Shown in pieces: positions 2,645 through 54,398 of a DNA stretch of 64,000 nt. The stretch's first letter is position 1. The number at the start of each line of letters is the position of its first letter. This stretch comes from a phage. The stretch lies in NCBI GenBank assembly GCA_037574385.1, contig GCA_037574385.1_4529.1; one strand, 5' to 3'. The translations under genes and the position numbers were made by a program. The notes under the pieces are model-generated. The model searched no databases. It saw only the letters and a program-made list of their open reading frames with translations, and was not told where the DNA came from.

Positions 2645-4116
2645 GGTCCAAATACGTCTTCAAACGAATCCGCTTCTGTTTTATCAAAACGGAACCCTTT
2701 AATAATTGGAAGGAAAATACCTACAGTACCTTCACGGCCTTTAGAATGAACCCAACCATTACATTCGCAATCAGCAATACGTCCGATCAATTTACCTTCA
2801 CGAGCTTCGGTCATTAATCGTTCACGGTCTAAATCATGACGCTCGTCTAAAGGAATAAGAACCTTTACACCGTCAACTGTTTTATGAGTTGTATCTTTAA
2901 AACCTGAACCACAATCGGTTGTAATACGACGACAACGTGATACGAGTTCGACACCGCCTAATTTGTTAGGGTCTTTAGAGTGTTCATAGTATCCTACAAC
3001 TTCTAAAGCGATATCAATAACTTCTTTAAATTTAATTAGGTTCTTAGAGCGTTTGTTTTCCCAATATGAATCACGGTTTTTAAGGATAATACCTTCAAGA
3101 CCTTGGTCAACATATTTTTTATAAACCACTTTAGCTTCATCAAGATTACGAACTAACTGGTTTTCGATAGGTTCAATTCGTTTAAAGCCTTCAGCCATAT
3201 TTTCAAGAGCAGCAAAACGAACATCGTATTTCTGACCTTTAATTTTGCCATCAGAATAGACTTCATCTAAAGGAACATAGTCCCAGGCTTGAAGAACCAT
3301 ACCTTCCGCTTCTTTAGGAGAAATAGTCCCTTGAAGAGATTTATTTGCTAAACCATTTGAAGTGCTACGGTCTGCAACTTGTACTTCTTCGGATTCTTCA
3401 TTATCACCAAATAAGAACGACAGGTCATTTCCTGAGCTCACAGCCTTTTTAATATCAAATGAATGATAAACTAATTCACCATCAATTAAAACCCCATTAG
3501 GGTGTCTTTCACGAGCTTCTTTAGTCATTTCCATTAGTTCATCTGCTAATAGGGTAAGACCATGGTATTCGTTACCGGCGCGAGAAAAGAATTGAACACC
3601 ATCATCGCGAACTTCAGCGAAACAACGAGCACCATCTGCTTTTAATTGGGCAAATGCGGGCCATTTAATATTTTTAGTAATCAATTTCTCATCATATGCA
3701 GATGCTAACATCTGTGGTTGCAATTGAATAAGACCAGGCCACACCTTATTCGCGATAGACACTGAAGCACCTACTTCAAGGTCGCGCATCATTACACGAC
3801 GAAGGACTTCTACATCATCAGGTTTACCATCAGCGATATAACCCATGAGCTCTTTAATTGCAGCATTACCAGTGAGTTTACGAGTGGCTAATGTGAACTC
3901 AATAAAATCCAACATGTCATCTAATTCAAGAAGACCATATGCTTGGGACCTTTCACCTGGTCCTGGCCATTTCTTAATATAATACTGGATACCACGTGCA
4001 TATGTTAAACGATACACACGTTCAAGTAATTTGTTGTCCTTATTTTTCTTAAGGATTTCCTGTTTTGTTTTAGTAGAACCGATCGCAGCTATTTGGTTTA
4101 AAATATCTAAAATCAT
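2623..4116 (-). CDS. 30: ATP-dependent DNA ligase
   Basis: 497 aa; adenylation motif KADGAR (KxDG); strong overall resemblance to T4 gp30 (487 aa). Confidence 0.85.
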   Translation of the reverse strand: MILDILNQIAAIGSTKTKQEILKKNKDNKLLERVYRLTYARGIQYYIKKWPGPGERSQAYGLLELDDMLDFIEFTLATRKLTGNAAIKELMGYIADGKPDDVEVLRRVMMRDLEVGASVSIANKVWPGLIQLQPQMLASAYDEKLITKNIKWPAFAQLKADGARCFAEVRDDGVQFFSRAGNEYHGLTLLADELMEMTKEARERHPNGVLIDGELVYHSFDIKKAVSSGNDLSFLFGDNEESEEVQVADRSTSNGLANKSLQGTISPKEAEGMVLQAWDYVPLDEVYSDGKIKGQKYDVRFAALENMAEGFKRIEPIENQLVRNLDEAKVVYKKYVDQGLEGIILKNRDSYWENKRSKNLIKFKEVIDIALEVVGYYEHSKDPNKLGGVELVSRCRRITTDCGSGFKDTTHKTVDGVKVLIPLDERHDLDRERLMTEAREGKLIGRIADCECNGWVHSKGREGTVGIFLPIIKGFRFDKTEADSFEDVFGPWSQTGL

Positions 4117-47074: not shown

Positions 47075-47090
47075 AGCTCCCGAAGGAGCT
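47075..47090 (-). terminator. UUCG-tetraloop hairpin after gene 39
   Basis: AGCUCC-UUCG-GGAGCU overlapping the gp39 stop. Confidence 0.5.
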
Positions 47091-48907
47091 TAGGACATCC
47101 ATTCTTTACGAAGTTCTGAATCATCACCCAACAACATTTCAAAGAGTTCTTTCCAATTTTCAGGAAGTTTAACTACGTCGTACACAGGGTTTTGAATCAT
47201 TTCACGATATTCTGACTTTTCAAGGGAGCCCAATCCCTTGATGTATCGAATACTATGCTTAGGCAGTGTATCTTTAGCTTCTTCATACTCAGCTACAGTA
47301 TAAAACCATTTTTGAGTTTTGCCGATTTGTGCAATAATTACAGGTGTTTTAACAAAGCGAATACGTCCTTGTTCAAACAATTCAGGCCAATTACTAAAGA
47401 AAGCAAGCAAAGCCGGATAGATACTTCCAAGACCGTCATGATCGGCATCGGTCATAATTGCAATATTACGATAGTTCGTATTCTCTGCCTTTTCACCAAG
47501 AATAAGACCTGTGATAGCACAGATATCAAAGAGCTCTTTGTTCTTCATCATATCGGCATATGACATACCCCAGCTATTCATCACCTTACCACGTAATGGG
47601 AATCCGCCGTGTAGTTCACGGTCACGAACATCAATGAGATATCCAATTGCCGAATCACCTTCTGTTAAAAACAATGTCGTATCTGCATCTTTACCGCATT
47701 GGTTAGCTTTAATATGCTTATGAACCTTAGCTTTAGTTGCCTTTTTAGCTGCTTTAGTTTCTGCAGCCTTTTCTGCTGCCAATTTACGAGCTAATGCTGC
47801 TTCAACAATAGGCATAATCAAGGCTTCGTTTTTAAGAAGTGCCTGAGCAATTTTCTTAGCATCTAATTGGATATGATTACGAATATCACCATACGTTGAC
47901 GTTAAACGTTCTTTAGTCTGAGAATCAAAACGCATGTTGCTCATGTCTCTAATAAACATCAACATTGTGAGACATTCTTTAACACGAGCTTTAGTGACTT
48001 CAATACCCTTATATTTCTTTTTAATACCCGGCAAAAGATGTTCGCAAATATCATCCATTACACATTCAACATGATGACCACCATTTTTAGTATGGATGTT
48101 ATTCACATAAGTTAAATGACGGAAGCCATCCGGTGATGTTGTGAATGCTATAGAGACTTTATCATTTTCTTGAATGATGTTATCTTCACCAAATTGTTTA
48201 GCAAATCGTTTAAAATTGCCATCAACCTTTTTACCATTAAATGTGAACTTGATATCAGGATAAACGACTGCCAATGTTTGAAGTCGGTCTAAAGTAATAT
48301 CTAAATAAATTTGAGATAAATTATGCTCTTCAAATGAAGTGAAATCAGGAGTGAAGATTACTTTAGTGCCTTTACCTTTAGATTTCTTAGAAGACCATGA
48401 TTTGTTTTCCATTCCGTTTGAACAGTTAACAGTGATTTCATTTTCGCCATCTGACGTGATGCCTGTAAACAACGTAGAGAAGATATTAGTTAAACTACTC
48501 CCGACGCCGTTCATACCACCTGTCTTGCGTTCAGAGTCGTCACCAAAGTTACCACCGGCCTTTGGAATAGTCCAGGCTGCTACAGGCCCAGGAATTTGTT
48601 CACCCGTTTGGTCGGTAACTAAACCTTGAGGAATACCACGTCCGTTATCTTCCACTGAAACTTGATTATTTTTAATTTGCACATCAATTTTATTTGCAAA
48701 CTTAAATGATGTACGAATAGCTTCATCAACCGAGTTGTCAATAATCTCATCGATTAATTTAACCAGACCAGGAACATATTCAACTTGTTGATATTTACCA
48801 AACAAAAAACGCTCATGTGCTTCTTTAGCTGAAGAACCAATATACATACCACTACGTTTCTTAATATGTTCTACATCTGACAGTACCTTAATTTCATTTT
48901 TAATCAT
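47090..48907 (-). CDS. 39: DNA topoisomerase II large subunit, fused gp39+gp60 (GyrB-like)
   Basis: 605 aa in one ORF; GHKL ATPase N-terminus (DNSVDEA, GRGIP) plus Toprim region; T4 splits this into 39 (516 aa) and 60 with a translational bypass. Confidence 0.85.
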   Translation of the reverse strand: MIKNEIKVLSDVEHIKKRSGMYIGSSAKEAHERFLFGKYQQVEYVPGLVKLIDEIIDNSVDEAIRTSFKFANKIDVQIKNNQVSVEDNGRGIPQGLVTDQTGEQIPGPVAAWTIPKAGGNFGDDSERKTGGMNGVGSSLTNIFSTLFTGITSDGENEITVNCSNGMENKSWSSKKSKGKGTKVIFTPDFTSFEEHNLSQIYLDITLDRLQTLAVVYPDIKFTFNGKKVDGNFKRFAKQFGEDNIIQENDKVSIAFTTSPDGFRHLTYVNNIHTKNGGHHVECVMDDICEHLLPGIKKKYKGIEVTKARVKECLTMLMFIRDMSNMRFDSQTKERLTSTYGDIRNHIQLDAKKIAQALLKNEALIMPIVEAALARKLAAEKAAETKAAKKATKAKVHKHIKANQCGKDADTTLFLTEGDSAIGYLIDVRDRELHGGFPLRGKVMNSWGMSYADMMKNKELFDICAITGLILGEKAENTNYRNIAIMTDADHDGLGSIYPALLAFFSNWPELFEQGRIRFVKTPVIIAQIGKTQKWFYTVAEYEEAKDTLPKHSIRYIKGLGSLEKSEYREMIQNPVYDVVKLPENWKELFEMLLGDDSELRKEWMS

Positions 48908-48956: not shown

Positions 48957-48972
48957 AAGGGCCGAAGCCCTT
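48957..48972 (-). terminator. UUCG-tetraloop hairpin
   Basis: AAGGGC-UUCG-GCCCUU. Confidence 0.45.
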
Positions 48973-49396
48973 ATTTAAATTTAATTTTCTGAAGTGCATC
49001 AATTGCAGCCAAACGCCCTTGTTCACTTTTAACTGTAATGACCACATCGCCTGATACGATCACCGAACCATCAACAAATTCTATAGAGTCTTTTTTGAAA
49101 TCGACAGCTGTATCTGGTTCCGGAACTTCTTCAAAGAATTTAAATTCTGCACCATAAATCAGAATATCACCTTGCATACTATGAATAGTTCGGCCATAAT
49201 CGCCTACGGCTTCTACAGCAATCATTGAAACACCGTAACCAATCATCTCTTCCACAATAAAATCTTTAGACAATAAAGTAGTATGCAGATTAGTATTAAG
49301 ACGTTTACCAGTCGTATTAAGAATTCTCAAGAAATTATCTTCCTGTCCTTTGATAATACGGTATTTCTTGCCAATTTCAAAACCTTTAAAAGCCAT
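48971..49396 (-). CDS. Hypothetical protein
   Basis: 141-aa ORF. Confidence 0.5.
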   Translation of the reverse strand: MAFKGFEIGKKYRIIKGQEDNFLRILNTTGKRLNTNLHTTLLSKDFIVEEMIGYGVSMIAVEAVGDYGRTIHSMQGDILIYGAEFKFFEEVPEPDTAVDFKKDSIEFVDGSVIVSGDVVITVKSEQGRLAAIDALQKIKFK

Positions 49397-49580: not shown

Positions 49581-50009
49581 TTATTCCTTAAAATGTGTTT
49601 TCAACATTTGATACAAAGACCATGCCTGGTCGTTATTTTCGATAGTAATCGTCATCACCGGAAATTCGGTCAATTCATCAAGTTCTTCAGAGTCTTGCTC
49701 TTCAGACGCTTGATATGGATTTCCAACTTCATCAAAAAACTCTGCTTCACTAGTAGAGAGCCAGATAAAGTTTTCATCAAGAATATCACCACCAGTTGCG
49801 TATCCAACCATGCCAGTAGATGTCACAATTTTAGTAGGTCGACCAAGATGGTCAACATCTAATACTTTAAATGGTTCCATGCCAAGACGTCGTGCATAAA
49901 TCCCATTATCAGTGTGGTTTTTAATAAACTCTTCTTGGACACGTTTATCTTTAAATTGGTACCATGAGTTAACGCGGAATTTATTAGCCATTAGTAAGTT
50001 TCCTTCCAA
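49581..50009 (-). CDS. Hypothetical protein
   Basis: 142-aa ORF. Confidence 0.5.
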
Positions 50010-50263
50010 TAAGTTGTACCATTTTCAGTGATTTCACGGAAGATACCATAGATAGGCATTTCATCACCGAGTTTTTCGTAAACGTAAACCACTTCAGTGT
50101 AGCATAAAAATTCAGTCCAGTTTTTCTGTACAACAACTAAATCAGGATTAAACAGAACATCTTCAAACTCATCGATGTTTGAATCAGTAGTTACGTTTTT
50201 AATGATTTGACGTTTCATAATATTCTCCTCTTGTTTTGATAGGTCTATAGTATCATAGACCAT
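49991..50263 (-). CDS. Hypothetical protein
   Basis: 90-aa ORF with PeSL-type promoter upstream. Confidence 0.5.
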
Positions 50264-50275
50264 AGTTGTTGTACA

Positions 50276-50800
50276 TCATTTTAGCAAAATAAAATCAACT
50301 TGTTCTGCCAATGAACGTCTGAACATTAATTGACAACTTCCGAGGATGAAATCAGGTGCTTCATAGACCGCGATGTAGTATCCTTTAGCTTTCAAGAGTT
50401 CAACATCTACCTGGTCATCAAACCATGCATAAACCGCGTCAACACTTTCAAATCCAAAATAGAACCCTTGAGCCCAATCTTCACTCAATTCAAATGTGTG
50501 CTCAATTCTATAGTATCTTAAGATATTTTGTTCAAGGAGTTTATCTTCATTTACTGTAGGACGATTAGGGACATTATAGTTGTCGCCGTGATGGTAGAAA
50601 TTACCTGAGAGTATTCCATGTTTATCAAGGAACTCCCATGTTTCTTCAGAGTTGTCGGTGCCCGACCAACCGTAAGGTGAGCGAGGTTCTTTATTCCAAG
50701 AGGTTTCCCAAATTCTGACGGCTTTACCGTCTTCGATGGCAATTCCTGGTAATGATTCACGTTGAGTACAAAAACTACGTTCTACGCGGTAAACTAACAT
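50276..50800 (-). CDS. Hypothetical protein
   Basis: 174-aa ORF with PeSL-type promoter upstream. Confidence 0.5.
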   Translation of the reverse strand: MLVYRVERSFCTQRESLPGIAIEDGKAVRIWETSWNKEPRSPYGWSGTDNSEETWEFLDKHGILSGNFYHHGDNYNVPNRPTVNEDKLLEQNILRYYRIEHTFELSEDWAQGFYFGFESVDAVYAWFDDQVDVELLKAKGYYIAVYEAPDFILGSCQLMFRRSLAEQVDFILLK

Positions 50801-50859
50801 ATTATTCTCCTCTGGTTGATACGGTTATAATATCAAAACCAGAGGAGAAGTAAACAACT
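50801..50859 (-). promoter_or_regulatory. Early promoter module with 11-bp inverted repeat pairing spacer to SD region
   Basis: GTTTACTTCTCCTCTGGTTTTGATATTATAACCGTATCAACCAGAGGAGAATATAATG; arms CTCCTCTGGTT / AACCAGAGGAG. Confidence 0.5.
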
Positions 50860-51279
50860 TTATGCGAAAGCAGCCGGGCTATATTTTTTAATTTGGAATT
50901 CAGGAACTACCATGAACTGACCAGCGAAAACGATGTTATAAAGCTTAACACCATCTTCTACCCAACGGTCGCTAATAAATCCGGCGATTTGCTTAGTTTT
51001 CCATGGCGTTCCATCGGTTGCCGCAGCAATAGTGAATTCGTGGTCTTTTTCAACAGAAACTGATCTGCATAGTCCCCATTTGAACGCTTTTTCTTCTGGT
51101 TCAATGAATTGGCTTGAGACGTAGCCAATGTTGCCATCAGCATCACGAACTTTAACTTGATGTGGACTAAAGAGTCCACAACTTACAGAAAGAACTTCAA
51201 CCAACTTCCCAGCAACTTTAGAGCGAGAAGCAACAGATACATATACGTAATCACCAATAGAGAGATTTGCAATATTCAT
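50860..51279 (-). CDS. Hypothetical protein, paralog family member 1
   Basis: 139 aa; shares N-terminal SRSKVAGKLVEV and C-terminal GFISDRWVEDGVKLYNIVFAGQFMVVPE with the next two genes. Confidence 0.55.
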   Translation of the reverse strand: MNIANLSIGDYVYVSVASRSKVAGKLVEVLSVSCGLFSPHQVKVRDADGNIGYVSSQFIEPEEKAFKWGLCRSVSVEKDHEFTIAAATDGTPWKTKQIAGFISDRWVEDGVKLYNIVFAGQFMVVPEFQIKKYSPAAFA

Positions 51280-51288
51280 AATAATTCC

Positions 51289-51774
51289 TTAAGCTTTACG
51301 AGGAGACACATAACGAGTGATTTCGGATTCTTTAACAACTCTGAAGTCACCTAAGAATACGATATTGTATAACTTTTCACCATCTTCAACCCATTGGTCA
51401 CTAATGAAGCCACACATAGTATCAGTTTTGCTTGGATAACCGTATTCATCGATGAAGTCAAATTCTTTATCAGTCTGGAATTCAACGCCTTTGCAAAGGG
51501 CCCATTTGAACTGTACATTATGCTCTGTGGATTCAACTTTTTCTCTTGAAGCAAAAGCACTACTCACAGGCGTTTCCAAGAACTTTGCACGAACATAAGC
51601 AAATTTGGTTTCCTGTGTCCCAAAACTAGGAATAATACGAACCTTTACCTCAGAATCTTCATCTTTAACGCCTTCTTTAAGTTGAATACTTACAACTTCG
51701 ACCAATTTTCCTGCGGCTTTAGAACGAGATTTGTTAGATACGCGAACGATTTCACCAATAATACCAAGATTCAT
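51289..51774 (-). CDS. Hypothetical protein, paralog family member 2
   Basis: Tracked ORF 51289..51837 over-extended; probable start MNLGIIGE at about 51774; shares SRSKAAGKLVEV and GFISDQWVEDGEKLYNIVFLGDFRVVKE. Confidence 0.5.
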   Translation of the reverse strand: MNLGIIGEIVRVSNKSRSKAAGKLVEVVSIQLKEGVKDEDSEVKVRIIPSFGTQETKFAYVRAKFLETPVSSAFASREKVESTEHNVQFKWALCKGVEFQTDKEFDFIDEYGYPSKTDTMCGFISDQWVEDGEKLYNIVFLGDFRVVKESEITRYVSPRKA

Positions 51775-51836
51775 AATTTCTCTCTCTTTGTTTAAATTGA
51801 ATTCATTATACTCCATCCATCCTTGGATGTACAACA

Positions 51837-52331
51837 TTAATTAAGGATATTAACCACAGCACTACGTGGAACTACACTAAAATCACCTGCATGAACAACG
51901 TTCAGAAGTTCAACACCGTCTTCAATCCACTGGTCAGTTACCCATCCATTTACTGGACCTGCGAAAGGACGTCGAATTGAAACATATTTACACAGCAAAT
52001 CAGTAGGCTCAATAGGCTTAATCAGAGTACCGTACATACAAGCGATATCCATATCAATACAGATGTCTTTAACGGGTTCTACTTCTTCAATCAACAGTTC
52101 AAAGTCTGTGCTTGGAAGGGCGGTAGTGGAAATTGTACCATATGAATTTTTAATTTCTAAGAATAACCAAGGGCCTTCAGCTTGTTTGATGAAGTTAACA
52201 ATAGTGAAACTATTGCCTTGAGTGGCACCTAAAATTTCACAAAACTTTTCGTAAGCTCGCACTGAAGCACTGTACCAGTTGATTTGTTTTTCGTCTTTCA
52301 GGATGTAAGTAGCCGTAGTATTGATATTCAT
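51837..52331 (-). CDS. Hypothetical protein, paralog family member 3 (divergent)
   Basis: 164 aa; C-terminal GWVTDQWIEDGVELLNVVHAGDFSVVPR aligns with members 1 and 2. Confidence 0.5.
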   Translation of the reverse strand: MNINTTATYILKDEKQINWYSASVRAYEKFCEILGATQGNSFTIVNFIKQAEGPWLFLEIKNSYGTISTTALPSTDFELLIEEVEPVKDICIDMDIACMYGTLIKPIEPTDLLCKYVSIRRPFAGPVNGWVTDQWIEDGVELLNVVHAGDFSVVPRSAVVNILN

Positions 52332-52397
52332 AATGTTTTTCCTGTTTGGTTAAGATAGAAAGATTATACTCCAACCATCCTTGGTTGTAAACTGATT

Positions 52398-53075
52398 TTA
52401 TCGCTGTTTTACACTTAACGGGTCAGGATTCTCAGGGACATCTTCAAGGCCAAGCGCATAACGCTGAGCATATTTTAACATCAAAATATCTTTAGCACAA
52501 TCATGAATACTATCATGGGCAATGAATCCTTTTAGCGTACCCATAGGTAATGGACACATACTTAATCCTCGCGTCAACGAGTAAGCTTCGATTGCCGTAC
52601 GAATATCGCGTTGAGCCCAGAATTTAACCGGTTCTAATTTATCAGTATCAATATCTGGTTCAAGAACACCTTCATCACGATAGAGGTCACGAATCAAATC
52701 GACCAAGATCGGGAAGTCAAAGCTCATACCACGGCACCACATCTGTGATTTCCATTGGTCAACTTTATTAGCTCGACAATAATCTAAAAAGATTTTAATG
52801 CCTTCAAGCGTAGTGACATCGTCTTCAGACGGAGCCAGGTTTTTACGTGCTTCTGCTGATTGTTCTTTCCACCATTTCATAGTGGATTTAGCGAAAACTC
52901 GCTTCCCTTTTTGAGAAGCTAAATTAAATTTAATTCGCTTACCTCGTTGAACAAGTTCTTCAAATGTTTCAACAACTTCAGGGTCCGAATTATATGCAAT
53001 AACCGCAAGGTCAATAACAGCCGCTTTTGATGTATTGCCGAATGTTTCAAAATCTATAATAACATCAGTGCTCAT
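52398..53075 (-). CDS. dexA: Exonuclease A (DEDD 3'-5' exonuclease)
   Basis: 225 aa (T4 DexA 227 aa); Exo I motif VIIDFETFG; immediately upstream of dda as in T4. Confidence 0.7.
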   Translation of the reverse strand: MSTDVIIDFETFGNTSKAAVIDLAVIAYNSDPEVVETFEELVQRGKRIKFNLASQKGKRVFAKSTMKWWKEQSAEARKNLAPSEDDVTTLEGIKIFLDYCRANKVDQWKSQMWCRGMSFDFPILVDLIRDLYRDEGVLEPDIDTDKLEPVKFWAQRDIRTAIEAYSLTRGLSMCPLPMGTLKGFIAHDSIHDCAKDILMLKYAQRYALGLEDVPENPDPLSVKQR

Positions 53076-53084
53076 AATTTTCTC

Positions 53085-54398
53085 TCAAATAAAATGGACG
53101 TCAAAACGACCACGAGTCGTGCCGACATACAATAACTGTTTAGCTAATTCTGAATCGGCATAATGGATACAAGGTGTATAAACAAAGGCTGTGTCAACAG
53201 ACATACCCTGAGCCTTATGGAAGGTTGATACTGGTAGTGCCTTCACCTTAGTGAACATACGTTTAGCATCCCAGAATTCGCTCCATGGAGCTTTACCACC
53301 TTTATTCCAGAATTTGTATGTTTCTGCAGTCTTAGCCAAAAACAAATTGAATTTATAAAGCTCTTCTTCAGAAGAAATAACCTTTATATCTTCGCGGATG
53401 TATTCTTCATCATCCCCATATGTTTCTACTGTAAGATTCCAGTATCGTATCATATACTCGCCAGAAACACCACGTGCTTTAACGAATGTAGACGTTTCTA
53501 CAGCATCTCGAATACGAACGAATTGCCCGTTATTGAAAAGCATTTCGGTCATATTTTTGCCATCTAGCTTATATGTCTTAGTAAATGGCTCTTGTAGAAC
53601 AATGACCTCGTCTTTAATAAATGGCTTTTCTGTTTCAAGAAGTTTTCGGCGAATAATTGAATTCAACTTATCCACCGACTTATTTGTGAATGCCATCATT
53701 CGATTTTCGAAAAGGTCTTCAGGAGTTTTAACGACGTTAAAATAGTTCATCATATACGATTTAAGGTCTGTATATCCATGAACACCGTGCCCATCAACTA
53801 CTTTATCATAAATCCATTTGCCATTACGAATATCGGTCGCAACATCAATAATTGGTGCATTGCTACGTTTAACTTCTGTAAGGTTGCATTGCACGAAGTC
53901 TTTGTGAGTGAAGAAAGGACTTAGATACGCAGTTGATTCGCCGGGGTCCACTGGACGAATCTGACATCGGTCACCAATTCCAATTACTGTACACCATTTA
54001 GGGATACTAGCTAACATTATTTTAAACAGAGAACGGTCACACATTGACGCTTCATCAAATAACAGTACACGACACAAGGCTAAGTCGGGAACCTTTTTCT
54101 GTTCAAATAATACGTTTTCTTCGTATGTAGTTGGGTTGATTTTAAGAATGCTATGAATAGTCGATGCTTCTTGTCCAGCAAGTTTGCTTAGAACCTTTTT
54201 AGCAGCGTGTGTTGGTGCTGCTAAAATAATACCTGATTCTCCAGAAGAAATAAGGGCTTCAACGATGAATCTAGTAAGGGTTGTTTTACCTGTACCCGCA
54301 GGTCCATTAATAGTTACGTGATGTTTCTTTTCTTTAATAGCTTTCATAACAACGTTGAAGGCGTTTTTCTGGCCTTCAGTCAAGTCATCAAATGTCAT
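53085..54398 (-). CDS. dda: Dda DNA helicase (SF1B)
   Basis: 437 aa (T4 Dda 439 aa); Walker A GPAGTGKTT; near-identical N-terminus MTFDDLTEGQKNAFN.VMKAIKEKKHHVTINGPAGTGKTTLT. Confidence 0.9.
   Translation of the reverse strand: MTFDDLTEGQKNAFNVVMKAIKEKKHHVTINGPAGTGKTTLTRFIVEALISSGESGIILAAPTHAAKKVLSKLAGQEASTIHSILKINPTTYEENVLFEQKKVPDLALCRVLLFDEASMCDRSLFKIMLASIPKWCTVIGIGDRCQIRPVDPGESTAYLSPFFTHKDFVQCNLTEVKRSNAPIIDVATDIRNGKWIYDKVVDGHGVHGYTDLKSYMMNYFNVVKTPEDLFENRMMAFTNKSVDKLNSIIRRKLLETEKPFIKDEVIVLQEPFTKTYKLDGKNMTEMLFNNGQFVRIRDAVETSTFVKARGVSGEYMIRYWNLTVETYGDDEEYIREDIKVISSEEELYKFNLFLAKTAETYKFWNKGGKAPWSEFWDAKRMFTKVKALPVSTFHKAQGMSVDTAFVYTPCIHYADSELAKQLLYVGTTRGRFDVHFI

What the first reader, a model, noticed from the sequence alone, without database searches (positions are those of the whole stretch)
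50860..52331. Tandem triplication of a small protein family between gene 39 and dexA
Three consecutive genes share conserved N-terminal (SRSK-AGKLVEV) and C-terminal (GFISDxWVEDG-KLYNIVF-G-F-VV-E) blocks with divergent middles, and each has its own promoter cassette. Tandem diversifying paralogs in a phage accessory region are typical of host-interaction or anti-defence genes.
Basis: seen in the sequence. Interest (0 to 1): 0.55.

Follow-up and report, generated by a model that had tools for sequence, protein, structure and literature searches.

The report
Known motB.1–motB–motB-like gene trio
The three adjacent genes are the already described motB.1, motB and second motB copy of RB69-like T-even phages: small early proteins, the best-studied of which (T4 MotB) coats DNA and loosens the host silencer H-NS, so the finding is real but ordinary.

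Summary
The window is an RB69-like (Mosigvirus) T-even phage. On the minus strand, 50860-52331 holds three early genes. They are motB.1 (51837-52331, 164 aa), motB (true start 51774, 161 aa) and a short motB paralog equal to RB69 ORF010c (50860-51279, 139 aa).

The C-terminal block is shared by all three (BLASTP E 1e-10 to 2e-30; profile comparison 99.8%). The N-terminal SRSK-AGKLVEV block is in only two. MotB.1 has an unrelated N-terminal domain. Only two genes have their own promoter, a duplicated cassette. The short paralog starts 9 nt after the motB stop codon.

Patterson-West et al. 2021 (PMC7827196) already reported that MotB and MotB.1 share a C-terminal domain. They also reported that RB69 has two motB copies plus motB.1.

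AlphaFold models show two small SH3/KOW/Tudor-like beta-barrels joined by a disordered linker. dN/dS is 0.12-0.29, so selection is purifying. The extra variability comes from mosaic allele exchange.

The most likely function is host takeover by DNA binding and H-NS remodelling, as shown for T4 MotB. This is inferred for motB here. The roles of the other two genes are unknown.

Novelty: already known. Interest is low.

The parts
52363..52391 (-). Early sigma70-type promoter of motB.1 (TTTACA-17-TATAAT). It is copy 1 of a duplicated promoter cassette with a 6-4-6 inverted repeat, CAACCA-AGGA-TGGTTG, in the spacer.
   Evidence: Promoter scan 11/12. The 22-nt core occurs only twice in 64 kb, with 0 expected. 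Direct repeat D2. Conserved in related phages.
51837..52331 (-). motB.1 (ORF C, 164 aa). It has an LSm/SH3-like N-terminal domain (about residues 1-85), a disordered linker (86-108) and a MotB-type C-terminal barrel (109-164).
51840..51953 (-). C-terminal core block of MotB.1 (residues 127-164, GWVTDQWIEDGVELLNVVHAGDFSVVPRSAVVNILN).
   Evidence: tblastn and BLASTP matches to A and B.
51805..51833 (-). Early promoter of motB (TGTACA-17-TATAAT). It is copy 2 of the cassette (CATCCA-AGGA-TGGATG). It lies inside the spurious 5' extension of the 182-aa ORF.
51289..51774 (-). motB ortholog (ORF B, 161 aa from Met22). It has a KOW-like N-terminal barrel with SRSKAAGKLVEV, a disordered linker (residues 70-85) and a C-terminal barrel.
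50860..51279 (-). Second, short motB paralog (ORF A, 139 aa; equals RB69 ORF010c). It has the same two domains and lacks most of the linker. It has no promoter of its own. Its ribosome-binding site AAGGA overlaps the motB stop codon.
   Evidence: Pfam PF17613 78.9 bits. phrog_1671 E 9.5e-51. 44% identity to B. Annotated 'similar to RB69ORF010c; similar to motB' in Shf125875. Orthologs at over 80% identity in about 208 of 778 phage records. dN/dS 0.17-0.24.
50863..50988 (-). C-terminal core block of A (residues 98-139).
51292..51411 (-). C-terminal core block of B (residues 122-161).
51193..51259 (-). N-terminal KOW block of A (IGDYVYVSVASRSKVAGKLVEV). Its partner in B is at 51694-51760.
   Evidence: Direct repeat D1, 70% nt identity over 67 nt. 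Alignment.
50806..50854 (-). Downstream boundary of the trio: a promoter-plus-stem-loop (PeSL-type) element of the next gene, motB.2. The -10 box is in the loop and the motB.2 ribosome-binding site is in the 3' arm.
   Evidence: Promoter scan. RNA fold -24.4 kcal/mol, z -5.45. Annotated as a rho-independent terminator in phage SA35RD. T4 has the same architecture with a different sequence.

Best explanation
The region is the motB.1 - motB - motB-like early gene cluster of an RB69-like T-even phage. Host RNA polymerase transcribes it immediately after infection from two near-identical early promoters. One lies in front of motB.1 and one in front of motB. The short paralog is read from the motB transcript and is probably translationally coupled to motB.

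Each protein is two small beta-barrels joined by a flexible linker. MotB and the short paralog carry a KOW-like N-terminal barrel with a basic SRSK-AGKLVEV motif. MotB.1 instead carries an LSm/SH3-like barrel of the GoF/Frd.2 family. All three end in the same roughly 55-70 residue MotB C-terminal barrel.

By orthology with T4 MotB (58% identity), the motB product most likely acts as an abundant, sequence-nonspecific DNA-coating protein. Such a protein restructures the nucleoid and changes how H-NS sits on DNA, which makes the host more favourable and raises burst size.

The short paralog is an old, selectively maintained duplicate. It probably does a variant of the same job with its two barrels held close together. 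MotB.1 couples the shared C-terminal module to a different, possibly RNA-directed, N-terminal module.

Shown here: gene identities, domain layout, promoters, conservation and selection regime. Inferred: the biochemical activity of this phage's MotB, and any activity of the other two proteins.
For: Family assignment rests on (Pfam PF17613, PHROGs; identity to T4 MotB and MotB.1).

The gene order is the same in Shf125875, RB69 and other Mosigvirus, and in the Tequatroviruses RB68 and Shigella phage A2.

Promoters and the 9-nt B-A junction.

The two-barrel fold with a disordered linker.

Purifying selection on all three genes, dN/dS 0.12-0.29. Synonymous sites between paralogs are saturated (pS 0.55-0.80), so the shared blocks are kept by selection on the protein and not by recent gene conversion.

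Published function of T4 MotB: toxicity, tight nonspecific DNA binding, co-purification with H-NS/StpA and a 2-fold burst effect (PMC6070864). An altered H-NS footprint and up-regulation of H-NS-repressed genes (PMC7827196).

The published statement that MotB and MotB.1 share the C-terminal domain and that RB69 has two motB plus one motB.1.

The MotB.1 N-terminal domain as an LSm-like fold shared with GoF and Frd.2 (PMC12152347).
Against: No experiment exists for this phage's proteins, or for the short paralog in any phage.

T4 MotB is basic (pI 9.2). This window's MotB is acidic (pI 5.6), A is neutral (6.7) and MotB.1 acidic (4.5). Across orthologs pI ranges from 4.7 to 9.6. Nonspecific DNA coating may therefore not be uniform across the family.

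T4 motB.1 deletion has no laboratory phenotype, and MotB.1 had no effect in the published RNA reporter assay.

Which domain binds DNA is not known. The most conserved C-terminal motif (DQWVEDG) is acidic.

Confidence: 0.8

Rival explanations
1. The trio is an anti-defence (counter-immunity) locus. On this view the paralogs diversify to inhibit variable host defence systems, and each copy neutralises a different target.
For: The location is a dispensable, hyperplastic early region bounded by promoter/stem-loop cassettes. A is polymorphic for presence: about 208 of 778 records carry it, and 155 of 770 carry the full array. A and B vary more than the flanking genes. Alleles are exchanged across genera: Shigella phage A2 MotB.1 is 96% identical while its dexA is 68%. 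H-NS, the known MotB-associated host factor, is a xenogeneic silencer.
Against: Gene-wide dN/dS is 0.12-0.29, with dS raised in parallel. No evidence links the family to a defence system. The published T4 MotB phenotype is general DNA and nucleoid binding. The family is small and uniform: only 25 clusters at 50% identity in 1.84 billion proteins, none longer than 251 aa. An arms-race family would be expected to radiate widely.
Confidence: 0.12
2. The proteins act mainly on RNA or on the transcription-translation machinery rather than on DNA. KOW and LSm-like barrels are typical of NusG/Spt5, ribosomal proteins and Hfq.
Confidence: 0.15
3. The short paralog A is a redundant or decaying duplicate with no function of its own.
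For: It is absent from T4 and most Tequatrovirus. It has no promoter of its own. It is the most divergent MotB-type sequence.
Against: It is intact at exactly 139 aa in every genome examined. dN/dS is 0.17-0.24 over dS up to 0.6. It keeps both conserved blocks and a good ribosome-binding site. It is kept next to motB in two genera.
Confidence: 0.05

Closest known systems
T4 MotB (Pfam PF17613, 'modifier of transcription'; Patterson-West 2018 and 2021; Son 2021)
   Same: ORF B is its ortholog: 58% identity, the same length, the same KOW-like N-terminal motif, the same C-terminal block, the same position between dexA and cef, and early promoter control. ORF A is a full-length paralog at 38% identity to T4 MotB.
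   Different: The window's MotB is acidic (pI 5.6 against 9.2). It is a recombinant of a T4-like N-terminal part and an RB69-like C-terminal part. ORF A lacks most of the inter-domain linker, and T4 has no counterpart of it.
T4 MotB.1 and the GoF/Frd.2/MotB.1 LSm-like fold family (Kim et al. 2025, PMC12152347)
   Same: ORF C is the MotB.1 ortholog. It has an N-terminal five-stranded barrel plus helix, a flexible linker, and a C-terminal domain related to that of MotB. It lies immediately upstream of motB.
   Different: It is 164 aa, against 119 aa annotated in the T4 reference. The T4 reference form is cut short by a 1-nt insertion, and the usual T4-type protein is 143 aa. The window's copy also has a roughly 20-residue insertion (DICIDMDIACMYGTLIKPIE) in the linker.
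RB69 arrangement: two motB, one motB.1 and a 29-aa peptide (Patterson-West 2021, section 3.2)
   Same: It has the same genes in the same order, and 80-99% of the sequence is identical. This is the published description of exactly this locus type.
   Different: In the window motB.1 is one intact 164-aa ORF. In the RB69 reference record two 1-nt insertions split it into 132-aa and 29-aa ORFs.
PeSL promoter/stem-loop cassettes of T4-type phages (Arbiol 2010, PMC2839356; Comeau 2014, PMC4122927)
   Same: These are early promoters of the TTTACW-N17-TAYWAT type combined with stem-loops. They sit at gene boundaries in a hyperplastic region, are repeated, and could serve as recombination sites.
   Different: For the motB.1 and motB cassettes the inverted repeat is only 6-4-6 and lies wholly within the spacer. 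I did not test terminator function or recombination.

Membership tests
MotB family (Pfam PF17613) | Whole-protein score above the Pfam gathering threshold (25 bits) | tested here: met
   A 78.9 bits, B 181.6 bits, C 35.3 bits. C matches only model positions 78-153.
MotB family (Pfam PF17613) | N-terminal KOW-like barrel with the SRSKxAGKLVEV motif | tested here: met
   Met for A and B. Not met for C, which has a different N-terminal domain.
MotB family (Pfam PF17613) | C-terminal core motif G[WFY][IV][ST]DQW[IV]EDG..L.N[IV]V | tested here: met
   Present in A, B and C. These columns are invariant or nearly invariant in 64 MotB and 53 MotB.1 sequences. hhalign 99.8%.
MotB family (Pfam PF17613) | Position in the early dexA-cef region of Tevenvirinae, minus-strand early transcription unit | tested here: met
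   Synteny with T4, RB69, RB68 and others. Early-type promoters.
MotB family (Pfam PF17613) | Tight nonspecific DNA binding, association with H-NS/StpA, toxicity in E. coli | not testable with these tools
   Known only for T4 MotB (PMC6070864, PMC7827196). The pI differs strongly here.
MotB.1 / LSm-like fold family (GoF, Frd.2, MotB.1) | Sequence orthology to T4 MotB.1 across the N-terminal domain | tested here: met
   C versus T4 MotB.1: 37% over 134 columns, E 2e-26. phrog_2333 E 1.3e-82. Foldseek hit to T4 P39415, E 7e-10.
MotB.1 / LSm-like fold family (GoF, Frd.2, MotB.1) | N-terminal bent five-stranded antiparallel beta-sheet | tested here: inconclusive
PeSL (promoter-early stem-loop) cassettes | Early promoter consensus combined with a stem-loop at a gene boundary, repeated in the genome | tested here: met
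   Element at 50806-50854: promoter plus a -24.4 kcal/mol hairpin, z -5.45. The motB.1 and motB cassettes are duplicated, with a 6-4-6 inverted repeat and compensatory differences.
PeSL (promoter-early stem-loop) cassettes | Mediates insertion, deletion or shuffling of the flanked genes | not tested
   Only circumstantial. motB.2 lies on opposite sides of the trio in T4/RB68 and in the window. Phage F2 lacks motB.2.
Phage anti-defence proteins | Demonstrated or homology-inferred inhibition of a host defence system | not tested
   No anti-defence library was available. No gene-wide signal of positive selection.

The most novel reading that the evidence does not exclude
The shared C-terminal barrel may be a common partner-binding or oligomerisation module, recombined with interchangeable nucleic-acid-binding N-terminal barrels (KOW, LSm-like and others). 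On this reading the three co-expressed paralogs form mixed assemblies on DNA. The linker-less short copy would then tune or cap MotB filaments and so set how strongly the phage remodels H-NS chromatin in different hosts. My evidence allows this reading but gives it no direct support. Family members do combine one C-terminal domain with at least four N-terminal arrangements, including KOW plus a MotB.1-type C-terminal domain in Klebsiella and Enterobacter phages.
Probability: 0.15. Interest if true: 0.4.

Novelty: already known. Interest (0 to 1): 0.15.

Why it matters
It matters little as a discovery. The paralogy, the shared C-terminal domain and the RB69-type copy number are in the literature and in database annotation.

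The work has two uses. First, it gives a clean annotation for this window: the correct motB start, the operon structure, and the fact that the short paralog has no promoter. Second, it offers a few corrections and leads for people working on MotB and MotB.1.

- The 119-aa T4 reference MotB.1 used as the type sequence lacks the last 24 residues of its conserved C-terminal domain, because of a single extra base in the reference record.
- RB69's '29-aa peptide' is the detached tail of MotB.1.
- motB alleles are domain-level mosaics.
- The uncharacterised short paralog is under clear purifying selection, so it deserves a test alongside MotB.

Tried and rejected
1. Fourth copy, or the RB69 '29-aa peptide', in the window. 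tblastn of all three proteins and of T4 MotB and MotB.1 found only the three genes. The peptide turned out to be an artefact of a split motB.1 in the RB69 record.

2. Solved structure by sequence: none for MotB.

3. Informative domain fusions of the C-terminal domain. A profile search of 1.84 billion representatives gave only 25 clusters, all 251 aa or shorter. There is no guilt-by-fusion clue.

4. Subfunctionalisation by charge, that is, basic MotB where A is absent and acidic MotB where it is present. Rejected: pI varies from 4.7 to 9.6 with no such pattern. RB69-type MotB is basic even though A is present.

5. Recent gene conversion as the cause of the conserved blocks. Rejected: synonymous sites are saturated.

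6. Gene-wide positive selection. Rejected: dN/dS is 0.12-0.29. Site-level tests were not done.

7. Sequence link between the MotB.1 N-terminal domain and the window's GoF by hhalign: nothing found. This agrees with the paper's remark that only deep searches and structure show the link.

9. The NAR 2021 MotB paper (PMC8450097) is not held in the library. I cite it only through the reference list of PMC12152347.

Full report
**What the sequence is.** The 2.9-kb stretch around the finding is 98% identical to Escherichia phage phiE142 and to Shigella phage Shf125875, a Mosigvirus (RB69-like T-even phage). Several hundred T4-like phages match it.

All genes here run on the minus strand. In transcription order they are:
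- dda (53085-54398)
- dexA (52398-53075)
- ORF C (51837-52331)
- ORF B (51289-51837 as an open frame)
- ORF A (50860-51279)
- motB.2 (50276-50800)
- cef, goF, 39.2 and RB69 ORF005c
- the fused 60+39 topoisomerase gene (47090-48907)

**Checking the observation.**
- A and B align over their whole length: 44% identity, E 2e-30.
- C shares only the last 30-36 residues with A and B at BLASTP level (E 1e-10 and 4e-10). The similarity reaches about 75-105 residues at profile level. Pfam motB model positions 78-153 score 35.3 bits. T4 MotB aligns with C over 105 columns. hhalign of the two families gives 99.8% probability.
- The N-terminal block SRSK-AGKLVEV is present in A and B only.
- The window holds no further copy.

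The promoter claim is two-thirds right. Strong early-type promoters precede C (52391..52363) and B (51833..51805). A begins 9 nt after the B stop codon, with its ribosome-binding site AAGGA overlapping that stop, so A must be read from the B transcript. The third promoter-like cassette (50854..50827) is downstream of A and belongs to motB.2.

The B promoter sits inside the first 21 codons of the 182-aa ORF. Homologs start at the equivalent of Met22 (T4 MIINIGE..., RB69 MITIGE...). B is therefore 161 aa, starting at 51774.

**Identity of the genes.**
- B is the motB ortholog: Pfam PF17613 E 1.3e-53, phrog_1671, and 58% identity to T4 MotB.
- A is a second, shorter MotB-family gene: PF17613 78.9 bits, phrog_1671 E 9.5e-51. 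It equals RB69 ORF010c and is annotated in Shf125875 as 'similar to motB'.
- C is motB.1: phrog_2333 E 1.3e-82 and 37% identity to T4 MotB.1.

T4 itself has dexA-motB.2-motB.1-motB-cef and lacks A. RB68 and Shigella phage A2 (Tequatrovirus) have motB.2-motB.1-motB-A. The window and RB69 have motB.1-motB-A-motB.2. A distant Klebsiella phage has one single gene of this family.

About 208 of 778 phage records with a motB-family gene carry an A ortholog at more than 80% identity. 155 of 770 carry the whole three-gene array.

**Already published.** Patterson-West et al. 2021 (PMC7827196, section 3.2) aligned 102 MotB homologs and reported three things. [quoted passage not shown] One gene probably arose by duplication of the other. 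[quoted passage not shown] Kim et al. 2025 (PMC12152347) placed the MotB.1 N-terminal domain in an LSm-like fold family with GoF and Frd.2. The finding is therefore a rediscovery.

**Structure.** AlphaFold2 models built on family alignments gave mean pLDDT 81 for B and 79 for C. In each case two confidently predicted all-beta domains are separated by a low-confidence linker: B residues 70-85 and C residues 86-108.

This agrees with the published KOW assignment of the MotB N-terminal domain. The published HHpred call for the C-terminal domain was OB-fold, and I could not settle that point. The roughly 22 residues that A lacks relative to B fall in the disordered linker and in N-terminal-domain loops. 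A is therefore a 'linker-less' MotB.

No solved structure of the family exists. A profile search of 1.84 billion representative proteins found only 25 clusters, all 251 aa or shorter. In the viral structure library the significant matches (14 at E <= 0.001) are almost all proteins of T4-like phages, led by MotB.1 and MotB homologs including T4 MotB.1; a Serratia phage KOW-domain protein and a borderline Streptomyces phage protein also fall under that cut-off.

**Evolution.** Within Mosigvirus the flanking proteins are 97-100% identical to the window's (dexA, dda, cef, motB.2). By contrast A is 85-94% identical, and B falls into two allele classes of 96-99% and 77-80%.

Nei-Gojobori estimates give dN/dS of 0.17-0.24 for A, 0.12-0.28 for B and 0.00-0.29 for C. 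For A and B, dS reaches 0.2-0.7, against 0.05-0.19 in the flanks. The extra variation therefore comes from imported divergent alleles under purifying selection, not from gene-wide positive selection.

The window's motB is itself a mosaic.
- Codons 11-50 are 82-90% identical at nucleotide level to T4 motB, and 50-70% to RB69.
- Codons 81-161 are 85-98% identical to RB69 motB, and 45-78% to T4.

Exchange crosses genera. Shigella phage A2 has a MotB.1 that is 96% identical to the window's, next to a dexA that is 68% identical.

Between the paralogs, synonymous sites are saturated even in the conserved blocks (pS 0.55-0.80). The duplications are therefore old, and the blocks are held by selection on the protein.

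Family members combine the same C-terminal domain with several N-terminal arrangements. Enterobacter and Klebsiella phages even have a KOW N-terminal domain with a MotB.1-type C-terminal domain.

**How it most likely works.**

*Shown here.* There are three early-promoter-driven genes, two transcription units, two-barrel proteins and purifying selection.

*Taken from the T4 literature.* MotB is abundant early and toxic when expressed alone. [quoted passage not shown] It up-regulates 75 host genes, about a third of them in the H-NS regulon, and doubles burst size. A later paper reports that MotB compacts host and phage DNA. I know that paper only from its title in a reference list, because it is not held.

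*Inferred.* The window's MotB does the same. The short paralog does a variant of it. MotB.1 couples the shared C-terminal module to a different N-terminal module. T4 motB.1 deletion has no laboratory phenotype.

*Caveat.* T4 MotB has pI 9.2. The window's MotB has 5.6, A 6.7 and MotB.1 4.5, and the family spans 4.7 to 9.6 with no link to the presence of A.

**Rivals.**
- An anti-defence role is not excluded, but nothing specific supports it.
- An RNA- or transcription-machinery role is suggested only by fold resemblance.
- Decay of A is contradicted by its conservation.

**Verdict.** The finding is real and partly mis-described. It is a known family in a known arrangement, and of low interest.

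**Side observations.**
- The T4 reference record has one extra G in motB.1. This truncates the protein to 119 aa, whereas T4 strain 147 and most relatives encode 143 aa.
- The RB69 reference has two 1-nt insertions that split motB.1. This explains the published '29-aa peptide'.
- The motB.1 and motB promoters are a duplicated cassette with a compensated inverted repeat in the spacer.
- The hairpin upstream of motB.2 sequesters that gene's ribosome-binding site. T4 has the same design with a different sequence.

Noticed in passing
L001 (T4 NC_000866) 3643-3880; L012 (T4 strain 147): The T4 reference motB.1 has one extra G (TGGATTGGAAGATGG against TGGATTGAAGATGG in T4 strain 147). It therefore ends ...WVTDQWIGRWR* at 119 aa. 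The next frame still encodes EDGVELLNVVHAGEYSVVPRSAVVAILN. The unshifted 143-aa form (P0131) was seen on 256 contigs. The '13.8 kDa' MotB.1 used as the type sequence probably lacks the end of its conserved C-terminal domain, through a record error or a laboratory allele.
   Followed up: partly
L011 (RB69 NC_004928) 3177-3673: The RB69 reference motB.1 carries two 1-nt insertions relative to the window. These split it into RB69p013 (132 aa) and RB69p012 (29 aa). The 29-aa 'Category 3' peptide of Patterson-West 2021 is therefore the detached C-terminal tail of MotB.1, not a separate gene.
   Followed up: yes
window 51289-51774: The window's motB is an intragenic mosaic. Codons 11-50 are 82-90% nt-identical to T4 motB and 50-70% to RB69. 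Codons 81-161 are 85-98% identical to RB69 motB and 45-78% to T4. The breakpoint is near codons 45-60, between the two domains.
   Followed up: yes
window 50806-50854 (minus strand): A strong hairpin (-24.4 kcal/mol, z -5.45) has the -10 box of the motB.2 promoter in its loop and the motB.2 ribosome-binding site (GAGGAG) in its 3' arm. Read-through transcripts from motB and A could therefore hide the motB.2 start, while transcripts from the local promoter would not. T4 has the same design upstream of its motB.2 with a different sequence. The element is annotated as a terminator in phage SA35RD. It fits the PeSL class.
   Followed up: partly
window 51805-51833 and 52363-52391 (minus strand): The motB and motB.1 promoters are a duplicated cassette whose 22-nt core has one mismatch and is unique in the window. 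The spacer holds a 6-4-6 inverted repeat, CATCCA-AGGA-TGGATG against CAACCA-AGGA-TGGTTG. The two differences between the copies are compensatory. Phage mogra carries the motB.1-type version at both sites.
   Followed up: partly
window 48971-49396 (minus strand): RB69 ORF005c (141 aa) falls in the same PHROG as goF (phrog_622). It also aligns to the N-terminal domain of the MotB.1 family by profile comparison (63% probability, E 7e-5). It may be a further member of the GoF/Frd.2/MotB.1 LSm-like family. If so, the 3.4 kb from 48.9 to 52.3 kb would hold three such N-terminal domains and three MotB-type C-terminal domains.
   Followed up: partly
window 49991-50263 and 49581-50009 (minus strand): The mechanical ORFs for cef (90 aa) and goF (142 aa, TTG start) are over-extended at the 5' end. 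Homologs start at MKRQ (50218, 75 aa) and MANKF (49991, 136 aa).
   Followed up: partly
L010 (Shigella phage A2), L009 (phage F2): The trio moves between genera. In the Tequatrovirus A2, MotB.1 is 96% identical and A 84% identical to the window's proteins, but dexA is 68% and motB.2 36%. Phage F2 is classified as Tequatrovirus but carries Mosigvirus-like flanks, and it lacks motB.2 altogether.
   Followed up: partly
P0001-P0120 (MotB family): Net charge is not conserved in the MotB family. pI ranges from 4.7 to 9.6: T4-type 9.2-9.4, RB69-type about 8.5, the window type 4.9-5.6 and JS98-type 5.2-6.4. Extending T4's nonspecific DNA coating to all orthologs is therefore uncertain.
   Followed up: partly
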